Shown piece after piece: positions 9,036-42,335 of a DNA stretch of 64,000 bases; position 1 is the first letter of the stretch; each line of letters opens with the position of its first letter. The translations under genes were made by a program, and so were the position numbers. Below the pieces are notes generated by a model. That model did not search any database, was not told the origin of the DNA, and saw nothing but the letters and a program-made list of their open reading frames with translations. This DNA is from Armatimonadota bacterium. Its GTDB lineage: Bacteria > Armatimonadota > Zipacnadia > Zipacnadales > UBA11051. The stretch lies in the NCBI GenBank assembly GCA_013178155.1, contig JABLXH010000002.1, positions 116,523 to 180,522 on the forward strand. Direction: 5' to 3'.

Positions 9036-9773
9036 TCAGCGCAGGGGCCAGAATACCACCAGGCAGTCCATCGCCGTCGCCACCAGCCAGTGCAAGAGCC
9101 ACGGGCCGACGAAGGACTTGCCTCGCCAGGCCATCACACCCAGGATGACACCTGCGGCAATCGCCGAGAAGCTCTCCAGCTCCAGTTTGGGGAAGTGCGC
9201 CATGGCGAACGGGACCATCTGGATGAAGATGGCGATGGCCCCCAGACGCCGCCCCAGACCGAACAGCAGAAACCCGCGAAAGAAGAACTCCCACGCCAAG
9301 AAGTAGACTAGCCAACCGGCCATAGAAGGGAAGAGAAGCCAGGCGTTGTCTCGCGCCGGACCATAGCGCGGGTAGAAGGCGTGGAAGTCCGGCCGGCGCG
9401 AGGCGATTGCCAGCAGCGGCAGCATCACCAGGAGCAGGACCACGAGCCACCGCCCCCAGATACGCACGTCACCAGCGGCCAAGCCGAACTCGCTAACTCG
9501 TTCGCGGAACACCAGTCGCACCAGCAAGACCGGCCCCAGAAAGAGCGTCACAAAGTTCAGGGCGTGCCAGCCGAACAGAGCATACTGCGCCGGAATGAAG
9601 CCGAGATGCCCGTGGTAGTGCACCACTGCCAGGGCAAGGGCGGCGTAGACAAGTATGACCGCCTCGCGCCAGGGGGCATCCGGCACCCAAGACAGCGCAG
9701 AACAGGGTTGGTGACATGGCGCTGGCGCTGCGGCTGCATTGGCGGGAGGGGCAGGCGGCAACCCGTCGGTCAT
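9036..9773 (-). CDS. CPBP family intramembrane metalloprotease (CAAX protease / Abi)
   Basis: EFFFRGFLL (EExxxR motif) and FAMAHF (FxxxH motif) within a polytopic hydrophobic protein. Confidence 0.7.
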   Translation of the reverse strand: MTDGLPPAPPANAAAAPAPCHQPCSALSWVPDAPWREAVILVYAALALAVVHYHGHLGFIPAQYALFGWHALNFVTLFLGPVLLVRLVFRERVSEFGLAAGDVRIWGRWLVVLLLVMLPLLAIASRRPDFHAFYPRYGPARDNAWLLFPSMAGWLVYFLAWEFFFRGFLLFGLGRRLGAIAIFIQMVPFAMAHFPKLELESFSAIAAGVILGVMAWRGKSFVGPWLLHWLVATAMDCLVVFWPLR

Positions 9774-9855
9774 GGCGTCGTAACTCCGGACGAATCTGCG
9801 CTGCGACAGCGCTGTCCATTGTCCAACCTTGGCCGAGAGCTGTCAACCCGCGGAT

Positions 9856-9868
9856 GTCACCAGGTGAC
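9856..9868. promoter_or_regulatory. Palindrome GTCACC-A-GGTGAC upstream of the P1 promoter
   Basis: Perfect 6+6 inverted repeat, read directly, 19 nt upstream of the -35 hexamer. Confidence 0.25.
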
Positions 9869-9886
9869 TTGCGCAAACTTTGGGGA

Positions 9887-9916
9887 TTGACAAAGTATTA
9901 TTATGGGTAGTACTAT
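9887..9916 (+). promoter_or_regulatory. Near-consensus promoter TTGACA-N18-TACTAT for paralog P1 (AT-rich island)
   Basis: TTGACA 9887-9892, TACTAT 9911-9916, spacer contains TTATTAT. Same architecture as 10623-10652. Confidence 0.5.
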
Positions 9917-9956
9917 CATTAGTAGTTAAATCACTGCCGGAAGGGAGAGCGCCACG

Positions 9957-10586
9957 ATGAAAGCCCTGCACTGGTCCAGCGCCTTAGCCGTCACAATGGT
10001 AGCTTGCCTCACGCCGGTCGGGGCAGATGATGACCGCTCACGTCGGACCATCACCTCGCCCCCTACCGGCAACGTCTCCGGTCTGTCGCCACAGTCTTAC
10101 CTCTACGACCGTGGTCGCGGCCCTGCATACAGCGACCGACCCGGGCATGGCCCTGCGCCAGCCTACCATCCTCCCCACCATGTCTCGCCTCCCGCGAGAG
10201 GGCCGCACTGGAGCCAGCCAGTGTTGCCACCCGGTCTCCACTACTCGCCGACGCGTGGGATCACGCCAGACTTCCTCGGCTCGGTCATCGTGGCCTGCGA
10301 CGACACGTTCCTGGGGGTCGTTGACCGCAAGTACTGGGAGCCTGACTCGATCTGCAATCCCGACGGCCGCTACGGCGACCCACGGTCTCCGTACTCGATC
10401 TGGAATCCGGACGGACGGTGGGGGACCAAGTGGGGGTATGACAGCCCCTGGAACCCCAACGCCACGTGCCCGCCCAAGGTCTACTTCGGCAACTACTTCT
10501 GGGGCTACCTGTCCACCAATCGGTCGCTGCAGCCCCGGATCAACCCTTACTGGTTGGTGGAGCATCTGGAGAAGAAACTGCGCTGA
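9957..10586 (+). CDS. Secreted protein, paralog P1 (signal peptide + Pro/His-rich linker + conserved NPDGRYG-repeat C-terminal domain)
   Basis: GGAAGGGAG RBS 9 nt upstream; signal peptide MKALHWSSALAVTMVACLTPVGA; C-terminal FLGVVD...SICNPDGRYGDPRSPYSIWNPDGRWG...PYWL aligns with the P2 C-terminus. Confidence 0.7.
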   Translation: MKALHWSSALAVTMVACLTPVGADDDRSRRTITSPPTGNVSGLSPQSYLYDRGRGPAYSDRPGHGPAPAYHPPHHVSPPARGPHWSQPVLPPGLHYSPTRGITPDFLGSVIVACDDTFLGVVDRKYWEPDSICNPDGRYGDPRSPYSIWNPDGRWGTKWGYDSPWNPNATCPPKVYFGNYFWGYLSTNRSLQPRINPYWLVEHLEKKLR

Positions 10587-10622
10587 AAGAGGGCGACGAC
10601 TGACAGACGGTGTAGATATGCC

Positions 10623-10652
10623 TTGACAGCTTATTATCTCAAGTAGTACTAT
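10623..10652 (+). promoter_or_regulatory. Near-consensus promoter TTGACA-N18-TACTAT for paralog P2 (AT-rich island)
   Basis: TTGACA 10623-10628, TACTAT 10647-10652, spacer contains TTATTAT. Identical geometry to the P1 promoter. Confidence 0.5.
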
Positions 10653-10710
10653 TCAGAATAGTAAAACAGACGGGAAGACGTGACAGCCCCGCTGAGAAGG
10701 GGTGAGACCG

Positions 10711-12108
10711 ATGAAAACCTGGTGCCGCAGAGTGCTGGTATTGGCGGTGGCGGCCCTGGTACTGGCGCCTGTGCTCGGCGATGGCGGCAACCGCCGTCGC
10801 ACGGTGACCTCACCGCCTCAGAAAGCGAGCAGCGTATCCAAGTCCGAGGCAACGAAGGCGGCGCCCCGCAGCACGACCGAACGTCGCAGTGAGAACAGCC
10901 ATGCGCGGCCCCGGGCAGCTTCACCAGGCCTGTCCGTCCGGACCCATGCGCCGGCGGCGCCGTCCGTGAGCCCTGGGCCCGGTCGTTCCCTGGCTGGTTC
11001 CCGAGCCCCCGCTGGTGTGCAGCGAACAGCCATACCAGGTCAGCAATCCGACCGACGCGGGGTGAGCGTCTCCTCTCGCTCGCCCATGACCCGGCGCTCA
11101 CTATCCCCAACGCCAAGCACCCGTCCGGTCGCGCCGGCCACGTTGACCACGCCACACATTGCCCGGCGCGACGGCAGCCCTCCGACCAGCGACGCCCTGC
11201 GCAGACCCCCGACCACGTCCCGAGGGCCGATGACCCGGCCCAGTCCAAGACCATCGGCGACATCTCCGACCGAGCCGACCTCACGCCCGGCGCCGTCAGT
11301 GAGCCCTCACAACCCGAGTGCCTCTCACGAGGCGACGTTTGGCCGCCCGCCCGGCCCGCCACGGACCGACGTTCGGCCGGGTAGTGGACCAAGCGGAGAC
11401 AGGCACGACGCAGACCGCGGGACTCGCAACCGAAGAGACGGTGACGGTCCCGGTGAACGCCCCGCACACGACCGCGATCCTGGTCAGCCCCACCGCCCGT
11501 CCTTTGACCGCGATGAGCGGCGACCGGATTACCATTGGAGTGACCGGCACGATGGCCTCGGTCGCGATTGCCGCCACCGGCACCGGCCGCACCACCGCGT
11601 TCCTGTCTGCCGGCCCGTGCCGGTACCCGTCTACATCCCGTGGCCGCGGCCTGTCTGGTACCCGCCGCCTCTGCCGGATGTGGTCGTCGTGACCGAGCGC
11701 GTCGAGGTGCCGGTGCCTTACCCGGTGCCAGAGCCAGCGCCTCTGCCCCCGCCCTATGCGCCGCCGCCTCCGCCCGATGGCGACTGGCCTGTCCTTGGGG
11801 CCGAGATCTGGGCCGCTGACGGCACCTTCCTCGGCGTCATCAGCCTCGACACCACGGACCCCCACTCGATCAGTAACCCCGAGGGCCGCTTTGGCCACCC
11901 CGAGTCGCCGGAGAGCATCTGGAACTACGAGGGTCGCTTCGGCAGCCTGGACTACGACCTCAGCCCGTGGTGTGAGACAGCAACACGCCCGCCGCAGCTC
12001 ATCCTGGACGGACGCTTCCGGGGCTATCTGACGGCCAATGAGCACGTGTTCCCCCGGGTTGATCCGTACTGGCTCGGACAGTACCTTGGCCTGATCGCCG
12101 ACAGCTAG
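10711..12108 (+). CDS. Secreted protein, paralog P2 (signal peptide + about 300-aa disordered Ser/Pro/Arg/His/Asp-rich region + conserved NPEGRFG-repeat C-terminal domain)
   Basis: AAGGGGTGA RBS before ATG 10711; signal MKTWCRRVLVLAVAALVLAPVLG; post-signal RRTVTSPP shared with P1 (RRTITSPP); C-terminal FLGVIS...SISNPEGRFGHPESPESIWNYEGRFG...PYWL. Confidence 0.7.
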   Translation: MKTWCRRVLVLAVAALVLAPVLGDGGNRRRTVTSPPQKASSVSKSEATKAAPRSTTERRSENSHARPRAASPGLSVRTHAPAAPSVSPGPGRSLAGSRAPAGVQRTAIPGQQSDRRGVSVSSRSPMTRRSLSPTPSTRPVAPATLTTPHIARRDGSPPTSDALRRPPTTSRGPMTRPSPRPSATSPTEPTSRPAPSVSPHNPSASHEATFGRPPGPPRTDVRPGSGPSGDRHDADRGTRNRRDGDGPGERPAHDRDPGQPHRPSFDRDERRPDYHWSDRHDGLGRDCRHRHRPHHRVPVCRPVPVPVYIPWPRPVWYPPPLPDVVVVTERVEVPVPYPVPEPAPLPPPYAPPPPPDGDWPVLGAEIWAADGTFLGVISLDTTDPHSISNPEGRFGHPESPESIWNYEGRFGSLDYDLSPWCETATRPPQLILDGRFRGYLTANEHVFPRVDPYWLGQYLGLIADS

Positions 12109-12257: not shown

Positions 12258-13415
12258 GTGAGGAATACATTCCTGCCATTCTGTCCGCCCCAGATCGGGG
12301 AAGAGGAGATCGCTGAGGTCGTGGACGCACTGCGCTCGGGGTGGATCACTACGGGCCCGCGGACGCAGCAGTTCGAGACCGACTTCAAGGACTACGTGGG
12401 CGCTCCGGCGGCTCTCGCCGTGAGTTCAGGCACCGCGGCGCTGCACCTGGCCCTGGCAACGCTGCCTGTTGGCCCTGGCGATGAGGTCATCACGACGGCG
12501 CATACCTTCGTTGCCACGGTCAACGCCATCGAGCACACCGGCGCAACTCCCGTCCTGGTGGACGTGGAGCCTGACACCCTGAACATGGACCCGGACCTGG
12601 TCGCTGCGGCTGTGACGCCAAGGACCCGGGCCATCGTGCCGGTGCACTACGCCGGACATCCGGTGGACATGGACCCGCTGTACGCTCTCGCCCAACACCA
12701 CGGCCTGAGCATTGTGGAGGACGCCGCCCATGCGGTCAGTGCCACCTACCGCGACCGGCGCATCGGCGACTGCGACAACCCGGTAGCCTGGAGCTTCTAT
12801 GCCACCAAGAACATGACTACGGCCGAGGGAGGTATGGTAACCGGGCCGCTCGAGTTCATCGAGCGTGCGCGGATTGCCAGCCTGCACGGGATGAGCAAGG
12901 ACGCCTGGAAACGCTTTGGCAAGGGCGGAAGCTGGTACTGGGAAGTTGTCACGGCCGGCTTCAAGTACAACATGCCCGATGTCCTGGCGGCTATTGGCCT
13001 CTGCCAGTTGCGCAAGCTGCAAGGCTTTCAACAGCGCCGCGCCGCGATCGTGGCGGCCTACAACTCGGCTTTCGCGGGCCAGGAGGCACTGGAGTTGCCA
13101 GTGACCCGACCGGACGTCGGCAGCGCCTGGCACCTGTATGTTCTGCGTCTGAACCTCGAGTGCCTCACCATCGGGCGCGACCAGTTCGTGCAAGAGCTCA
13201 TCGCCCGCAACATCGGCGTGTCGGTCCACTGGCCCCCGGTCCACATTCAGCCCTACTATGCGGCCAAGTACGGCTACCAGCCCCTCGACTTCCCGGTCTG
13301 CTATCGCAACTATGAGCGTATGCTGAGCCTGCCACTCCACGCCGGCCTGACCGACCAGGACGTGGCTGACGTGATTGACGCCGTGCGAGACGTCATCAAC
13401 AAGTTCCGGCGCTGA
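12258..13415 (+). CDS. DegT/DnrJ/EryC1/StrS family aminotransferase
   Basis: LPFCPPQIGEEEI...SGW N-terminus, SSGTAALHLAL, GDEVITTAHTF, and the FYATKNMTTAEGG lysine motif. Confidence 0.85.
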   Translation: MRNTFLPFCPPQIGEEEIAEVVDALRSGWITTGPRTQQFETDFKDYVGAPAALAVSSGTAALHLALATLPVGPGDEVITTAHTFVATVNAIEHTGATPVLVDVEPDTLNMDPDLVAAAVTPRTRAIVPVHYAGHPVDMDPLYALAQHHGLSIVEDAAHAVSATYRDRRIGDCDNPVAWSFYATKNMTTAEGGMVTGPLEFIERARIASLHGMSKDAWKRFGKGGSWYWEVVTAGFKYNMPDVLAAIGLCQLRKLQGFQQRRAAIVAAYNSAFAGQEALELPVTRPDVGSAWHLYVLRLNLECLTIGRDQFVQELIARNIGVSVHWPPVHIQPYYAAKYGYQPLDFPVCYRNYERMLSLPLHAGLTDQDVADVIDAVRDVINKFRR

Positions 13416-13450
13416 GAGCTTTCGCTGGGTGCGCCGGGGGAGGGACCACC

Positions 13451-14425
13451 ATGGGGGTCAACCTGAACCTTGGGGGAGTCAGCGTAGGCGCCGGCCGGGG
13501 CATCAGTAGTGGCTGTGGCTCGGTCTTTGGCGTGTTCCTTGGTCTCTTCCTCGTCCCTGCGGCGTTTTACATGGTCTTCTACGGAGAGAAGCGCCTGGTC
13601 AATCACGGGGTGGTCTTTGAGCGGACAGCGCTCACCAGTCCCGAAACCGCTGCCACGCAGAAGGGCGGGCTGGCAAAGGTCAAGGGCAGACCTGCTGGCC
13701 AGTTCGTCGAGGCCCCGCGCTACCCCAAAGCCAAGGTTCTGTACTGGCGCACCAACGTCGAAGAGTACAAAGAGGAGCGCGACTCCGACGGTGAGATCGA
13801 ACGGGACTGGGAGAGCGTGGGCGGCGAGAAGCGGTGGGTACCCTTCACGCTGGGTCCCCTTAAGGTGGATCCGCAGAAGGCCAACCCCGTCGGCGAAGTC
13901 ACGGTCTACAAGGGCTACAAGCCGCGGGGCGCCAGTGAGTTTGACCCGGAACGCTGGGATAGGAGTCCTCAGGTCGGGGATCAGCGCATGACCGTTGAGG
14001 TGCTGCCGACGGACAAAGAATACCTGGTGCTTGGTGAGGTTACCAACGGCGCCATAGCGGGCGGCTCGAGCTTCGTGGTCAGCGCGCTGGACGAGGCCGG
14101 GACAATAGCTGCGCTGAAGCTCGAGTACAAGATCGCGTACTGGCTGATCAAGGGCGGAGCTGTGGTGGCGATGTGGCTTGGCCTCATGGCGATCTTCGGT
14201 CCCCTGATGGCTCTCGTCGGCTGGATTCCCCTCATTGGTGAGCGCCTCACCGGCCTGGTGGCCCTGGGCGCTCTGGCCTTCTCCGTGGTCACCGTGGCGC
14301 TCCTGACCCTGCTGTTCAAGCTCTTTTGGCTCATCGCCCTGGTGGGGGGACTGGCGATCGCTGTTCTCATCGTCCGCGGTATCACCACGCCAAGGCATCG
14401 GCCAGGGACGGCACCCGCGTCCTGA
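13451..14425 (+). CDS. TMEM43-like (DUF1625) membrane protein
   Basis: One N-terminal TM, about 190-aa soluble loop, three C-terminal TMs. Topology and length match the TMEM43 family; by-eye call. Confidence 0.45.
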   Translation: MGVNLNLGGVSVGAGRGISSGCGSVFGVFLGLFLVPAAFYMVFYGEKRLVNHGVVFERTALTSPETAATQKGGLAKVKGRPAGQFVEAPRYPKAKVLYWRTNVEEYKEERDSDGEIERDWESVGGEKRWVPFTLGPLKVDPQKANPVGEVTVYKGYKPRGASEFDPERWDRSPQVGDQRMTVEVLPTDKEYLVLGEVTNGAIAGGSSFVVSALDEAGTIAALKLEYKIAYWLIKGGAVVAMWLGLMAIFGPLMALVGWIPLIGERLTGLVALGALAFSVVTVALLTLLFKLFWLIALVGGLAIAVLIVRGITTPRHRPGTAPAS

Positions 14426-14647
14426 TTGGCCGGCTGCGGCTCGTCGTTCCCACGCGCCAGCGCAGGCTTGAGCGACCGCTGAGAACACCAGCGGTTCGCC
14501 AGCCTGGCACTTCCCATTCTTAAGGGCGTCTTGAGACGTCGGTCGGCTGTTCTTGATGGGGCGTACATAAGATAGCCTTGGGGGACGCACCAGTTCGCCA
14601 TGATGATCCATCGCACCAGCGTCTGGACGCCGTAAGGGGAACACACC

Positions 14648-16930
14648 ATGCCAGATAACTCATCATGGAGCCGTGAAGGGGCGCGCCTGCTGGTTCAAGA
14701 GCACCGCATCAGGCTCGTGGTAGTGGTGGTCCTGGCCACCTTTGTGGTGCTCGCCCGGCACTCACTTACCCATCCCTACGCTGCCCAGTTGTCAGTCCTG
14801 CTGATGCTCGGCGCGCTCCTCCTGGCGCGGTTCGGCGTACGCGAGGGACGAAGGAGCAGGTGGCGTCTGGGGTTCCACTTTGGGGCTGTCGCCCTGGCGG
14901 TCCTCGACCTGGCCGCCGTCACCTCTCTGCTGGTGGGAACGGGTGGGGCTGACAGCGGTTTCTTCTCCCTCTATCTGATCAGCCTAATCTTTGCCGCGAT
15001 CTTCTTCCACGGTCTCGAACTCGCCCTGCTAACCGCACTGGCTGCCGCGCTCTACGTTGGCGTGTCATGGAATACCCTCATCACGCCGGAGCAGATCTGG
15101 CACTCCATCGCTCGGCTTGTCGGACTGGGTGTAGTCTCCTGGTACGCCTATGCGCTCTCGGACGTGATCCGGCGCGAGCAGGAGGCCAGAGACCAGCTCC
15201 TGCGGCACCTCACCGAGGGGGTGCTCGTGTTCGACCGCGAGGAGCACCTGGTCCTGGTCAATGGGCCCATGTTGCGTCTCCTGCCTGGAAGGACCGAAGA
15301 GAGCCTGATTGGCACCGACCGGGCATCACTTGCGGCCGTCGGTGGATTCCTTGGGTGGCTGGTAGCCGACGTCGCCAGCGGGGCAGCAGCAAGCGACAGC
15401 TCCACGCGCGTCGGCTCCTTCCCCGAGGCAGGCCTGCCTCTTGTGGAGTGCGTGACTATCGCCTGCCGTGGTGACCGCAAGCAAGACGGTTGGGTGGTGG
15501 TGTGCAAGGATCTCCAGTCACAGACCGTTGAGACCCGTTCGCCCCGCAATCAGACCATCGAGAAGCTCTCGCCGCTGTCCAACCTCCGCGCCCTGACGCA
15601 GTCGCTGTATAGCATGGCGGGCTATATCGAGGAGCCCAAGCGGGCGCAGGCCATCGAGGCCATACAGCGCCACACCAAGGCCTTGCAGGGCGTCCTTGCC
15701 AATATGCTCCACGACTCCTATGAGGCTCCCGCCGAGGGCGGCAACCTGGATCTGACCTTTGTGGAAGTGCCCAGTCTCCTGCAGGGCATGCGCCGCCTGC
15801 TCCAGATTGCCCAGGGACCCCGTGAGGTGCCCGTAGACGTCATCATGTCCGAGCAGTTGCCGAACCTGAGTGTGGATCGAGCTGCTGTCAGTCAGTCGCT
15901 GCTGCACTTGTCCAAGGGGCTGGTGGCACTGGCCGGACATGACGATCGCCTGGTGATAGACGTACGGACCGTGGACGACTACGTTCGCTTTGCGCTCCAG
16001 CTCACCAGCGACAATGAACCGCTGGAGAGCGACATGGACGGGCAAGCCATGTCGGGCGCCGAGGCGGCCGAGGCCTTTGAAGGGACCGAGGCCTTCCGGA
16101 TCATCGAGGACCATGGCGGCCGCTGGGAGTGTGTCCCTCAGAATGGGCGCGTGCGCCGCGTAGTGGTTGAGCTGCCAATCGAGGGTCCGCCGAAGACGCA
16201 CCAGGTCGATCCCGCCGAGCAAGCGGCCACGCACCGTGAACTGTCGGAGATCGCTGCTACCAGTCTTCAACTGAACCCGGTACTGGCGGCGGAGGTCTCC
16301 AACCAACTGAAGAACTCGCTGAACGTCATCCGGGGCTACGCCGAGATGGCGCTGAAGAGCCAAAGCGAGGAACGTCGTGAGCGGGCCTTGGAGTTGGCTG
16401 TCAGTCTCAGCGACCAGGCCGCTGAGCTTGTTGATTCTCTGCAGCCGTCCGGTGGTCACTTCCCGCACGAGGAGGCTGCGGAGAGCACCCGTGAGAGACT
16501 TGCGGCGACCGCGCCGGAGAAAGCCGCGGTCGCAGCCGCAGGCACGATCCTGGTCGTGGACGACGACCCCTTCATGCGACAACTGCTGATCGATACACTG
16601 GAGGATGCCGGCTACACCACTGCCGGGGCCGATGACGGCATAAAGGCCCTGGACTACATCCGAAGCACCCCTCCCGCCATCCTGTTTGTGGACCTGTCCA
16701 TGCCAGGCCTGAGTGGGGTGGATGTGATGCGCGAGGTCCGGCAAAGAGTGCCCGACCTGCCGGTCGTCCTCATGACAGGCTACACCTACAACCTGGCCAT
16801 GCAGGCGCTCGGCGAGGAGAAGCCCTATGCCGTCATCGGCAAGCCCTTCTCCATCAACGAGGTGCTGGCCATCGTCAATGAGCTAGTCGGATCTCGCCAA
16901 CCCGCGGCCCGGAGCAAGACACCAGCCTGA
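14648..16930 (+). CDS. Membrane sensor with degenerate histidine-kinase core and intact C-terminal response-regulator receiver domain
   Basis: 4-5 N-terminal TMs. HisKA-like helices without His (SPLSNLRALTQSL; NQLKNSLNVIRGYAEMAL). Partial HATPase_c (FRIIEDHGGRWECVP). REC domain with ILVVDDDPFMR, FVDLSMPGLSG and GKP. Confidence 0.7.
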   Translation: MPDNSSWSREGARLLVQEHRIRLVVVVVLATFVVLARHSLTHPYAAQLSVLLMLGALLLARFGVREGRRSRWRLGFHFGAVALAVLDLAAVTSLLVGTGGADSGFFSLYLISLIFAAIFFHGLELALLTALAAALYVGVSWNTLITPEQIWHSIARLVGLGVVSWYAYALSDVIRREQEARDQLLRHLTEGVLVFDREEHLVLVNGPMLRLLPGRTEESLIGTDRASLAAVGGFLGWLVADVASGAAASDSSTRVGSFPEAGLPLVECVTIACRGDRKQDGWVVVCKDLQSQTVETRSPRNQTIEKLSPLSNLRALTQSLYSMAGYIEEPKRAQAIEAIQRHTKALQGVLANMLHDSYEAPAEGGNLDLTFVEVPSLLQGMRRLLQIAQGPREVPVDVIMSEQLPNLSVDRAAVSQSLLHLSKGLVALAGHDDRLVIDVRTVDDYVRFALQLTSDNEPLESDMDGQAMSGAEAAEAFEGTEAFRIIEDHGGRWECVPQNGRVRRVVVELPIEGPPKTHQVDPAEQAATHRELSEIAATSLQLNPVLAAEVSNQLKNSLNVIRGYAEMALKSQSEERRERALELAVSLSDQAAELVDSLQPSGGHFPHEEAAESTRERLAATAPEKAAVAAAGTILVVDDDPFMRQLLIDTLEDAGYTTAGADDGIKALDYIRSTPPAILFVDLSMPGLSGVDVMREVRQRVPDLPVVLMTGYTYNLAMQALGEEKPYAVIGKPFSINEVLAIVNELVGSRQPAARSKTPA

Positions 16931-40861: not shown

Positions 40862-41620
40862 ATGCGACTGCAGGGCAGAGCGGCACTGATTACTGGGGCC
40901 TCGCGCGGGATCGGCAGGGCGATCGCCCGACGGTTCGCCGCCGAGGGCTGTAACGTCGCACTAAACTACGTGAGCGAGGCTGGTCGCGACAACGCCGCCG
41001 AGGCCGAGGCGCTGGCGGCAGAAGTGCGGGGTCTGGGCCGCAAGGCCCTCTGCCTGGAGGCCGATGTCACCGATTTCGCCGCGGTCCAGGCCATGGTGGC
41101 GGCGGCGGTGGAGGCACTCGGGGGGCTTCACATCCTGGTCAACAACGCGGGCATCACCCGAGACCGCACCCTGCGCAAGCTCTCCCCCGAGGACTGGCAG
41201 GCAGTGCTGGACGTAAACCTCACCGGCGCCTTCAACTGCGCCAAGGCGGTGCTGGAGCCGATGCTGGAGCAGGGCTATGGCCGGATCATCAGCCTCGCCT
41301 CCGTGGTGGGTCTGATGGGGAACTTCGGCCAGGCCAACTATGCGGCCAGCAAAGCGGGGCTGACTGGCTTCAGCAAGTCGCTGGCCCGCGAGGTCGCTCG
41401 TAAGGGCGTCACCGTCAACTGCATTGCGCCGGGGTTCATTGACACCGAGATGACCCGGGCCATCCCCCAGGATGTCATCCCGCAGATCCTGGCTCAGATC
41501 CCGATGGGGGCGATGGGAACGGTGGAGGATGTGGCTAACGCAGCGCTGTTCCTGGCTTCTGAGGAGGCAGGGTACATCACGGGACAGGTGCTATCGGTGA
41601 ACGGCGGGATGTACATGTAG
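40862..41620 (+). CDS. fabG: 3-oxoacyl-[ACP] reductase
   Basis: TGASRGIGRAIA Rossmann motif; NNAGI; YAASKAG catalytic YxxxK. Confidence 0.9.
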   Translation: MRLQGRAALITGASRGIGRAIARRFAAEGCNVALNYVSEAGRDNAAEAEALAAEVRGLGRKALCLEADVTDFAAVQAMVAAAVEALGGLHILVNNAGITRDRTLRKLSPEDWQAVLDVNLTGAFNCAKAVLEPMLEQGYGRIISLASVVGLMGNFGQANYAASKAGLTGFSKSLAREVARKGVTVNCIAPGFIDTEMTRAIPQDVIPQILAQIPMGAMGTVEDVANAALFLASEEAGYITGQVLSVNGGMYM

Positions 41621-41625
41621 GCATA

Positions 41626-41671
41626 TTGTAATACATTGTACTTGTTGTTATACTTCCTACATTTATGTAGG
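41626..41671 (+). promoter_or_regulatory. TA-operon promoter TTGTAA-N17-TATACT with adjacent perfect palindromic operator CCTACAT-tt-ATGTAGG
   Basis: -35 at 41626-41631, -10 at 41649-41654, inverted repeat at 41656-41671. AT-rich island in GC-rich DNA. Confidence 0.45.
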
Positions 41672-41686
41672 AAGGGAATGAGTAAG

Positions 41687-41938
41687 ATGGGAACGACGAT
41701 GACGATGGGACCAAAAGGCCAGATCGTCATACCTGCTGCGGTCAGGCGGGCTGTGGACTTGCAGCCTGGGCAACGGGTGGACATTGAGGTGCGCAACGGA
41801 GTCGTGGTGCTGACGCCGATCCCGAATGATCTGATCAAGTACCTGGCTGGCAAGTACAAGGGCACTCCGTCTCCCCTGAAGGACCTCATTGCGGAGCACG
41901 CGGAGGAGGTGCGCCGCGATGAAGAAGGTCGCCTTTGA
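41687..41938 (+). CDS. AbrB/MazE/SpoVT-type antitoxin (VapB-like)
   Basis: MGPKGQIVIPAAVRRAVDLQPGQRVDIEVRNGVVVLTPIP SpoVT/AbrB swapped-hairpin motif. Start chosen for a 9-nt spacing from GGAAGGGA. Confidence 0.65.
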   Translation: MGTTMTMGPKGQIVIPAAVRRAVDLQPGQRVDIEVRNGVVVLTPIPNDLIKYLAGKYKGTPSPLKDLIAEHAEEVRRDEEGRL

Positions 41939-42335
41939 CGCCTGCGCCATCCTGGCCTGGCTCTGGGGTGAGAGGGGGGCTGTCCTGGTTTCCGAGCTAC
42001 TCCGCGAGGTGGCCGAGGGCCGGGCCTGGGGCGCAGTCTGTAGCATTAATCTGGGCGAGGTGTACTACCGGACGTGTCGCGAGAAGGGCCCCACCAACGC
42101 GGATAGCGATCTGCAGATGCTTCGCAAGCTCCCCTGGCAGGTCGTGCCGGCCTCGGATGACCTCGTCTGGGCGGCAGCGCGACTCAAGGCGCAGTATCCC
42201 ATCTCCTACGCCGACGCCTTCGCCCTCGCCTGTGCCCAGCATCATGACGCCGTCCTGGTGACCAACGACCCCGAGCTGGTGAGTGTGGAGCATGGCACGC
42301 CGGTGCTGTGGGGCACCGACGAAGCCGCTGACTAG
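41919..42335 (+). CDS. vapC: PIN-domain toxin
   Basis: VAFDACAILAWL (first acidic residue), ...LGEVYY..., ADAFALACAQHHDAVLVTNDPEL (C-terminal Asp). GGAGGAGG RBS; overlaps the antitoxin by 20 nt. Confidence 0.8.
   Translation: MKKVAFDACAILAWLWGERGAVLVSELLREVAEGRAWGAVCSINLGEVYYRTCREKGPTNADSDLQMLRKLPWQVVPASDDLVWAAARLKAQYPISYADAFALACAQHHDAVLVTNDPELVSVEHGTPVLWGTDEAAD

What the first reader, a model, noticed from the sequence alone, without database searches (positions are those of the whole stretch)
9887..10652. Two identical-architecture near-consensus sigma70 promoters (TTGACA-N18-TACTAT, spacer TTATTAT...AGTAG) in AT-rich islands drive the paralog pair
At 9887-9916 and 10623-10652 the -35 hexamer is a perfect TTGACA, followed by an 18-nt spacer beginning with the shared heptamer TTATTAT and ending ...AGTAG, then TACTAT (which includes the palindrome AGTACT). 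Local AT content is far above the about 67% GC background. Duplicated strong promoters with conserved spacer sequence suggest high, possibly co-regulated expression. The conserved spacer, AGTACT palindrome and downstream AGTA(G/A)T...AAA could be a regulator site. A GTCACC-a-GGTGAC palindrome at 9856-9868 lies just upstream of the first promoter.
Basis: seen in the sequence. Interest (0 to 1): 0.5.

Follow-up and report, generated by a model that had tools for sequence, protein, structure and literature searches.

The report
Twin promoters carrying a conserved operator
Two real-looking, near-consensus promoters in front of a pair of secreted-protein paralogs each carry two overlapping copies of a 17-bp palindrome (TAYTAT-N5-RTAGTA). 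The same palindrome sits in front of related genes in other Armatimonadota, so it is most likely the binding site of a still-unidentified repressor: a useful but ordinary kind of regulatory element.

Summary
TTGACA-N18-TACTAT occurs exactly twice in the 64-kb window, at 9887-9916 and 10623-10652. Both copies lie in two of only five AT-rich islands, 41 and 59 nt upstream of two paralogous genes for secreted proteins (ORF1 9957-10586, ORF2 10711-12108).

The shared "spacer" sequence is not left over from a recent duplication. The paralogs are 49% identical in protein and 60% in DNA over the shared domain, and the promoter flanks are about 30% identical.

What is actually conserved is a 17-bp inverted repeat, TAYTAT-N5-RTAGTA, present as two overlapping copies per promoter. 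O1 lies in the spacer; O2 runs from the -10 hexamer to about +5.

All 14 testable upstream regions of close homologs (Armatimonadota-like, high-GC metagenome contigs) carry it. Five of these have no TTGACA, and the repeat instead abuts an ECF-sigma-like GGAAT-N16/17-CGTC motif. Half-sites are conserved, cores are not, and the distance to the ATG varies (46-129 nt). No Rfam match or stable RNA fold was found.

Best reading: sigma70-type promoters gated by a dimeric repressor. The regulator was not found. The GTCACC-a-GGTGAC palindrome is not conserved and is unremarkable. This is a new member of a known kind, of moderate-to-low interest.

The parts
9887..9892 (+). P1 -35 hexamer, TTGACA
   Evidence: Conserved in the orthologous loci L001, L006 and L031.
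9896..9912 (.). P1 distal dyad O1, TATTAT-TATGG-GTAGTA, inside the -35/-10 spacer
   Evidence: Exact match to TAYTA-N7-TAGTA. Scores 23.0 bits with a PWM built only from non-window sites. Member of repeat family D1.
9911..9916 (+). P1 -10 hexamer, TACTAT; also the left half-site of O2
9911..9927 (.). P1 proximal dyad O2, TACTAT-CATTA-GTAGTT. The right half has one mismatch; a perfect TAGTA lies 3 nt closer, at 9920-9924. Covers about -12 to +5 of the predicted transcript start.
   Evidence: One mismatch. 21.7 bits. Aligned with 13 homologous promoters.
9939..9949 (+). ORF1 ribosome-binding site, GGAAGGGAGAG
   Evidence: Read from the sequence. Invariant in L001 and L006.
9957..10586 (+). ORF1, 209 aa: signal peptide, Pro-rich linker and a C-terminal ~100-aa domain of unknown function
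   Evidence: No Pfam or NCBIfam match.
10623..10628 (+). P2 -35 hexamer, TTGACA, 36 nt after the ORF1 stop codon
   Evidence: Conserved in L001 and L007.
10632..10648 (.). P2 distal dyad O1, TATTAT-CTCAA-GTAGTA
   Evidence: Exact match. 20.2 bits. Family D1.
10647..10652 (+). P2 -10 hexamer, TACTAT; also the left half-site of O2
10647..10663 (.). P2 proximal dyad O2, TACTAT-TCAGA-ATAGTA; both 6-nt half-sites are perfectly symmetric
   Evidence: Matches on both strands with 0 mismatches. Top PWM score in the window, 25.1 bits.
10711..12108 (+). ORF2, 465 aa from the ATG (a GTG at 10702 is possible): signal peptide, long Pro/Arg/Ser-rich region and the same C-terminal domain
   Evidence: The frame is intact in the relative L001.
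9818..9846 (-). Divergent sigma70-like promoter (TTGACA-N17-GACAAT) for the CAAX/CPBP protease gene 9036-9773. This is context, not part of the operator module.
   Evidence: The blocks GCTGTCAACC and CATTGTCC are conserved in L006 and GCTGTCAACC is also present in L031.
9856..9868 (.).
   Evidence: Not conserved in L006. There are 24 such 6-N1-6 palindromes in the window.

Best explanation
Each paralog has its own sigma70-type promoter (TTGACA-N18-TACTAT). Laid over each promoter are two copies of a 17-bp dyad-symmetric operator, TAYTAT-N5-RTAGTA, which overlap by 2 nt. O1 fills the -35/-10 spacer and O2 runs from the -10 hexamer to about +5.

The most likely mechanism is that a dimeric helix-turn-helix type regulator, encoded elsewhere in the genome, binds these dyads and blocks RNA polymerase. 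The two genes for secreted proteins would then be held off together and released together on some signal.

Shown here: the motif, its dyad symmetry, its fixed internal geometry, its exclusive association with this gene family across diverged Armatimonadota-like genomes, and its independence from the promoter class.

Inferred: that the hexamers are the working promoter, where transcription starts, that a protein binds the dyads, and that binding represses.
For: 1. The motif is far above chance. TAYTA-N7-TAGTA with <= 1 mismatch gives 13 strand-matches in the window against 0.23 expected. All are at the two promoters except one weak site inside a coding region.
2. A PWM built only from sites outside the window ranks the four window dyads first (20-25 bits). 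The next hit scores 12.8 bits.
3. The repeat finder independently recovers four copies at 9896, 9911, 10632 and 10647, spaced 15/721/15 nt.
4. All 14 upstream regions of close homologs with enough sequence carry the dyad (W_1, W_2, L002, L003, L004, L006, L007_2, L010, L011, L012_1, L012_2, L027, L029, L031). In 138 kb of high-GC sequence held, every hit >= 16 bits lies in such a promoter.
5. The conservation pattern is that of an operator. Half-sites carry 1.35-1.63 bits per position over the five core positions (0.84 at the sixth) and the N5 core about 0.1 bits. Orthologous alignments keep the half-sites but not the cores or flanks.
6. The geometry is tied to the promoter, not to the gene. 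Dyad spacing is constant, while the -35/-10 spacer varies from 16 to 18 nt and the O2-to-ATG distance from 46 to 129 nt.
7. Five homologs (L003, L010, L011, L027, L029) lack TTGACA. Instead they have GGAAT-N16/17-CGTC directly against a single dyad, so TACTAT is conserved where it is not needed as a sigma70 -10.
8. In L004 the two dyads are separated by 3 extra nt (TAGTA-T-TACTA). This shows the dyad, not the TAGTACTA palindrome, is the unit.
9. The organism uses canonical sigma70 promoters: 8 sites with >= 10/12 matches against 0.57 in shuffles.
10. It is not a recent duplication.
Against: - No regulator was identified. No DNA-binding gene lies next to the family in the window or in any fetched locus.
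- No second kind of target gene was seen, and no whole genome could be scanned.
- Transcription starts are unmapped.
- The dyads are AT-rich and overlap the -10. Part of their conservation could therefore reflect promoter function itself.
- The 15-bp offset of O1 and O2 would put two dimers on roughly opposite faces with a shared TA. This is workable but untested.
- P1's O2 right half is imperfect in the N5 register.
Confidence: 0.6

Rival explanations
1. Plain strong promoters with no dedicated regulator. The extra conserved TAYTAT / TAGTA blocks would be promoter-intrinsic: spacer or extended -10 contacts, easy melting, or a favoured initial transcribed sequence kept for high expression of abundant secreted proteins.
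For: Near-consensus hexamers and AT-rich islands. The organism uses canonical promoters. No regulator gene was found.
Against: The other sigma70-like promoters in the window lack the dyad. The conserved blocks form a strict dyad with a non-conserved core. The same dyad is kept in five homologs that lack TTGACA.
Confidence: 0.15
2. The site binds a regulator that is not a simple repressor. Examples are a response regulator reading the direct TAGTA repeats, a dual activator/repressor, or a MerR-like activator acting through the spacer dyad O1.
For: TAGTA recurs as direct repeats. O1 lies in the spacer of an 18-bp, slightly over-long promoter. A hybrid histidine kinase/receiver gene is conserved nearby (14648-16930; also in L002).
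Against: Direct-repeat spacing varies (12, 15, 18 nt) while inverted-repeat spacing is constant. -35/-10 spacers are 16-18 nt, not the 19-20 nt typical of MerR promoters (own knowledge), and no MerR gene is adjacent. O2 covers the -10 to +5 region, a position typical of repression. The neighbouring kinase has no DNA-binding domain.
Confidence: 0.12
3. An RNA-level element: the repeats act in the 5' leader as a hairpin, riboswitch or sRNA target.
For: The half-sites can pair. The 35-nt P1 segment folds with z = -1.95.
Against: No Rfam match, even at E <= 1. Leader folds are no better than shuffles, and the stems are 5-7 A-U pairs at -3 to -6 kcal/mol. O1 lies upstream of any plausible start. 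The sequence itself is conserved, with no compensatory changes. The distance to the ATG varies from 46 to 129 nt.
Confidence: 0.03
4. Chance, or a trivial carry-over from a recent tandem duplication.
For: The two promoters sit in front of tandem paralogs.
Against: The paralog domain is 60% identical in DNA and the promoter flanks about 30%, while motif positions are 100% identical. The same motif occurs in many independent metagenomic lineages. Shuffle statistics also argue against chance.
Confidence: 0.01

Closest known systems
Classical tandem palindromic operators overlapping a promoter, such as phage lambda OR/OL (17-bp operators) and Tn10 tetO1/tetO2 (own knowledge)
   Same: Palindromes of about 17 bp with conserved half-sites one helical turn apart (11 bp centre to centre). 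Two copies per promoter cover the spacer, the -10 and the start site, which implies occlusion of RNA polymerase by a dimeric repressor.
   Different: The sequence is unrelated. The two copies overlap by 2 nt (15-bp offset) instead of lying side by side. No repressor gene is adjacent, and binding is untested.
LexA SOS box of E. coli, TACTG-(TA)5-CAGTA (own knowledge)
   Same: The outer TACT...AGTA symmetry, and a position overlapping the -10/+1 of target promoters.
   Different: Different spacing and inner bases (TACTAT-N5-ATAGTA, 17 bp, against CTGT-N8-ACAG, 20 bp). The targets here are secreted proteins of unknown function. No SOS gene was seen carrying the motif in the sequence held.
QacR-type operators bound by two dimers on overlapping sites (own knowledge)
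   Same: Overlapping half-sites that could hold two dimers on opposite faces of the DNA across the promoter.
   Different: No TetR-family gene lies nearby, and the stoichiometry is unknown.
MerR-family promoters with the dyad inside an over-long spacer (own knowledge)
   Same: O1 is a dyad inside the -35/-10 spacer of a promoter whose spacer is 1 nt longer than optimal.
   Different: Spacers are 16-18 nt across homologs, not 19-20 nt. A second dyad lies downstream of the -10. There is no divergent merR-like gene.
ECF sigma promoters of the GGAAT-N18-GTT / GGAAC-N16-17-CGTT type, such as SigR, SigH and SigE regulons (own knowledge)
   Same: Five homologous genes carry GGAAT-N16/17-CGTC at the right spacing, directly upstream of the dyad.
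   Different: The two window promoters do not have this motif. They are sigma70-type.

Membership tests
Sigma70 (housekeeping) -35/-10 promoter | -35 hexamer close to TTGACA | tested here: met
   6/6 at 9887-9892 and 10623-10628.
Sigma70 (housekeeping) -35/-10 promoter | -10 hexamer TAnnnT with at least 4/6 matches to TATAAT, 16-18 nt downstream of the -35 | tested here: met
   TACTAT (4/6) with an 18-nt spacer in both. Homologs have 16-18 nt.
Sigma70 (housekeeping) -35/-10 promoter | Intergenic position upstream of a gene with a ribosome-binding site, conserved in orthologous loci | tested here: met
   41 and 59 nt upstream of the ATGs. Conserved in L001, L006, L007 and L031.
Sigma70 (housekeeping) -35/-10 promoter | Transcription start about 7 nt downstream of the -10, shown experimentally | not testable with these tools
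   No transcriptome data are available. Predicted starts are near 9923 and 10659.
Palindromic repressor operator overlapping a core promoter | Dyad symmetry with conserved half-sites, a non-conserved core and fixed half-site spacing across instances | tested here: met
   Half-sites carry 1.35-1.63 bits per position over the five core positions and the core about 0.1 bits. 21 instances share the same spacing.
Palindromic repressor operator overlapping a core promoter | Overlap with the -10 / start-site region | tested here: met
   O2 starts at the first base of the -10 hexamer and O1 ends 2 nt into it. This depends on the predicted promoter being the real one.
Palindromic repressor operator overlapping a core promoter | A cognate DNA-binding protein is identified | tested here: not met
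   No transcription-factor domain was found in the window ORFs scanned or in neighbours at other loci. The only DNA-binding protein is a MazE-type antitoxin at 41636-41938, which has a different operator.
Palindromic repressor operator overlapping a core promoter | Protein binding and repression demonstrated | not testable with these tools
   Needs EMSA or footprinting and genetics.
MerR-type promoter | -35/-10 spacer of 19-20 bp | tested here: not met
   18 nt in the window and 16-18 nt in homologs.
MerR-type promoter | Adjacent, usually divergent, merR-family gene | tested here: not met
   The divergent gene is a CAAX/CPBP protease.
ECF sigma promoter | GGAAY/AAC -35 and CGT -10 motifs 16-17 nt apart | tested here: not met
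   Absent at the two window promoters. Present in the homolog loci L003, L010, L011, L027 and L029.
Known cis-regulatory RNA (Rfam) | Match to a covariance model, or a stable conserved fold | tested here: not met
   No relevant match at E <= 1 in 9700-10800. None at the gathering threshold in seven related loci. Folds are not better than shuffles.
LexA SOS box | A known LexA consensus, and DNA-repair genes as targets | tested here: inconclusive
   The motif differs from the E. coli and Gram-positive consensus (own knowledge). No repair genes with the motif occur in the 138 kb held. The LexA motif of Armatimonadota is unknown to me, and no genome scan was possible.

The most novel reading that the evidence does not exclude
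The 17-bp dyad is the operator of an undescribed, Armatimonadota-restricted regulator. It has stayed attached to this gene family through tandem gene duplication and through a change of promoter class, from sigma70-type in one subfamily to ECF-sigma-type in another. It would define a small dedicated regulon for a widespread extracytoplasmic domain: 3308 cluster representatives, a confident AlphaFold model, and no Pfam family or PDB fold neighbour.
Probability: 0.35. Interest if true: 0.5.

Novelty: new member of a known kind. Interest (0 to 1): 0.33.

Why it matters
Armatimonadota are barely cultivated and, to my knowledge, almost nothing is known about their transcriptional regulation. A clean, phylogenetically footprinted promoter-plus-operator module gives three things:

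- direct evidence that canonical TTGACA/TAnnnT promoters operate in this phylum;
- a ready-made bait (the 32-bp O1-O2 duplex) for finding the regulator;
- an entry point into the biology of a large, uncharacterised family of secreted proteins that sits among envelope/LPS genes.

The retention of the same operator on two different promoter classes is a tidy example of modular regulatory evolution. The mechanism itself, a repressor operator overlapping a promoter, is textbook.

Tried and rejected
- **Recent-duplication artefact:** rejected.
- **RNA element:** Rfam at E <= 1 and at the gathering threshold, plus folding of the leaders and dyads, gave nothing.
- **Upstream GTCACC-a-GGTGAC palindrome as a regulator site:** not conserved and statistically ordinary.
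- **Regulator gene by neighbourhood:** Pfam scans of 35 window ORFs and 10 ORFs at other loci found no transcription factor apart from a toxin-antitoxin MazE.
- **Further regulon members:** none in the window or in 74 kb of related high-GC loci.
- **Literature:** searches for the motif and for the relative's accession gave nothing usable.
- **Extra homolog contigs:** L028, L030, L032, L033 and L035 were cut too close to the gene start to show a promoter. L034 is the same contig as L011.

Full report
**Observation.** The window (65.3% GC) contains TTGACA-N18-TACTAT exactly twice, at 9887-9916 and 10623-10652 on the + strand.
- Allowing 2 mismatches gives 5 matches against 0.63 expected, and none of 100 shuffles reaches 5.
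- Both copies sit in AT-rich islands, 9862-9948 and 10603-10686. These are two of only five stretches in 64 kb with GC <= 40% over 40 nt.
- Aligned on the -35 hexamer, the two 30-mers share 22 positions. The shared spacer parts are TATTAT at spacer positions 4-9 and GTAG at the end.

**The genes.** ORF1 (9957-10586, 209 aa) and ORF2 (10711-12108, 465 aa) both begin with a signal-peptide-like segment, followed by Pro/Arg-rich low-complexity sequence.
- They share a C-terminal ~100-aa domain at 49% identity, E = 3e-27.
- The domain has no Pfam or NCBIfam model and no PDB sequence relative.
- It is widespread: 3308 cluster representatives at E <= 1e-3.
- The surrounding genes are envelope/LPS-type: two GT9 heptosyltransferases, two DegT aminotransferases, GH123, a CAAX/CPBP protease, a TMEM43-like protein, a hybrid histidine kinase, LptF/G and PAP2.
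- The window comes from an Armatimonadota MAG. Its lumazine synthase is an exact match to NPV45488.1, and one homolog locus is labelled 'uncultured Armatimonadia bacterium'.

**Not a trivial duplication.** Over the shared domain the paralogs are only 60% identical in DNA. The 30 nt upstream of the -35 are 10/30 identical and the 45 nt downstream of the -10 are 14/45 identical. The hexamers and the shared spacer blocks are fully identical.

**What is actually conserved.** I collected homologous loci through the protein and read their upstream regions.
- Every close homolog with enough upstream sequence carries a 17-bp inverted repeat, TAYTAT-N5-RTAGTA. That is 14 promoters, including two further tandem paralog arrangements in L012 and L007.
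- In nine promoters (class A: W_1, W_2, L002, L004, L006, L007_2, L012_1, L012_2, L031) the layout is TTGACW, then 1-3 nt, then dyad O1, then dyad O2.
The left half of O2 is the '-10' TACTAT.
- In L004 the two dyads are pulled 3 nt apart (TAGTA-T-TACTA). The dyad, not the central palindrome, is therefore the unit.
- The -35/-10 spacer varies from 16 to 18 nt and the O2-to-ATG distance from 46 to 129 nt. The internal dyad spacing never varies.

**A second promoter class in homologs.** In five promoters (class B: L003, L010, L011, L027, L029) there is no TTGACA.
- A single dyad is preceded directly by GGAAT-N16/17-CGTC.
- That motif has the sequence and spacing of an ECF-sigma promoter (own knowledge of SigR/SigH/SigE-type consensus).
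- Here TACTAT is conserved although it is not needed as a sigma70 -10.

**Statistics.**
- TAYTA-N7-TAGTA with <= 1 mismatch gives 13 strand-matches in the window against 0.23 expected. All are at the two promoters except one weak site inside the DegT coding region, at 13254.
- A PWM built only from non-window sites ranks 10647, 9896, 9911 and 10632 first, at 25.1, 23.0, 21.7 and 20.2 bits. The next unrelated hit scores 12.8 bits.
- Information content is 1.35-1.63 bits per position over the five core half-site positions (0.84 at the sixth) and about 0.1 bits in the core.
- In 138 kb of high-GC sequence held, every hit >= 16 bits lies in a promoter of this gene family.
- The repeat finder, without any prior, reports the four window copies as one family with spacing 15/721/15.
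- Orthologous alignments (window against L006; window P2 against L007) keep the -35, the half-sites and the ribosome-binding site, while cores and flanks diverge.
- More distant homologs from other, mostly lower-GC, lineages (L013-L026) lack the motif. The module is therefore specific to this clade.

**Are the promoters real?** The organism clearly uses canonical sigma70 promoters. The window holds eight sites with >= 10/12 matches against 0.57 in shuffles, and most lie just upstream of ORF starts. One of them is the divergent promoter of the CAAX gene at 9846-9818, which is itself largely conserved in L006 and L031. P1 and P2 fit that pattern. No intrinsic terminator separates ORF1 from P2, so ORF2 may also receive read-through from P1. 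Transcription starts remain predictions (about 9923 and about 10659).

**Mechanism.** This is inferred, not shown. A palindrome with 6-bp half-sites 11 bp apart centre to centre is the standard footprint of a dimeric helix-turn-helix protein.
- Two such sites would cover about -27 to +5 of a sigma70 promoter. In class B, one site would cover about -6 to +11 of an ECF-type promoter.
- Both positions would occlude RNA polymerase, so repression is the most likely function. The paralogs would then be co-regulated.
- The 15-bp offset between O1 and O2 suggests either two dimers on opposite faces or alternative occupancy.
- No regulator gene was found in the window or beside any homolog. The only DNA-binding protein in the window is a MazE-type antitoxin with its own, different, palindromic operator at 41598-41700.

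**Rivals.**
- Promoter-intrinsic conservation is possible but does not explain the strict dyad, its absence from the other window promoters, or its retention in class B.
- A response regulator reading direct TAGTA repeats is disfavoured, because direct-repeat spacing varies (12, 15, 18 nt). A MerR-type activator is disfavoured by the 16-18-nt spacers and by O2.
- An RNA element is disfavoured by the lack of Rfam matches, by weak folds, by the position of O1 upstream of the predicted start, and by the variable distance to the ATG.

**The upstream palindrome.** GTCACC-a-GGTGAC (9856-9868) is present but not conserved in L006. It is one of 24 such 6-N1-6 palindromes in the window.

**Verdict.** It is a new member of a well-known kind of element. 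Its interest is moderate to low, and lies mainly in giving a handle on regulation in a poorly known phylum and on an uncharacterised protein family.

Noticed in passing
window 41598-42335: A third AT-rich island (41598-41700) carries the palindromes TACATGTA and CCTACATTTATGTAGG and a TTGTAA-N17-TATACT promoter-like site. It lies upstream of a MazE/AbrB-type antitoxin ORF (within 41636-41938, PF04014) and an overlapping PIN-domain toxin (41889-42335, PF01850). This looks like a VapBC-like toxin-antitoxin pair with its own operator.
   Followed up: partly
[not shown]
   Followed up: partly
window 10345-10369 and 10393-10417: A 25-nt direct repeat, 88% identical and 48 nt apart, lies inside ORF1. 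It corresponds to the repeated peptide DSICNPDGRYG / YSIWNPDGRWG, so the domain contains an internal duplication.
   Followed up: no
L003 2510-2565, L010 165-212, L011 275-322, L027 420-463, L029 1515-1557: Homologs of one subfamily carry GGAAT-N16/17-CGTC (ECF-sigma-like) directly against a single TACTAT-N5-RTAGTA dyad, instead of TTGACA. This suggests a change of promoter class with the operator retained.
   Followed up: partly
L001 4746-6152; GenBank NPV45451.1: Public gene calls handle these genes poorly. On FWPV01000029 the ORF2 equivalent is split into three small genes although the 468-aa frame is intact. ORF1 appears as a 120-aa protein in the MAG annotation, against the 209-aa ORF.
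   Followed up: partly
window 9818-9846 (- strand): A divergent sigma70-like promoter (TTGACA-N17-GACAAT) serves the CAAX/CPBP protease gene 9036-9773. Its GCTGTCAACC block is conserved in L006 and L031, and the protease and family gene are arranged divergently in L001 and L006 (and probably L031, whose upstream ORF was not scanned), but not in L002.
   Followed up: partly
L017 2860-2946, L022 2860-2946, L025 762-848: Short cyanobacteria-like (low-GC) homologs share a strongly conserved ~85-nt leader (…GCTATTACTGAGGTAAAAAGTTACTT…ATCAGGATAAAA…). It has no Rfam match. It may only reflect close relatedness.
   Followed up: no
window 12258-16930; L002 5020-8843: The gene order family gene(s) - DegT aminotransferase - TMEM43-like membrane protein - hybrid histidine kinase/receiver (6TM_PilS, HisKA, Response_reg) is conserved between the window and the distant locus L002. 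This hints at a functional link with the envelope.
   Followed up: no
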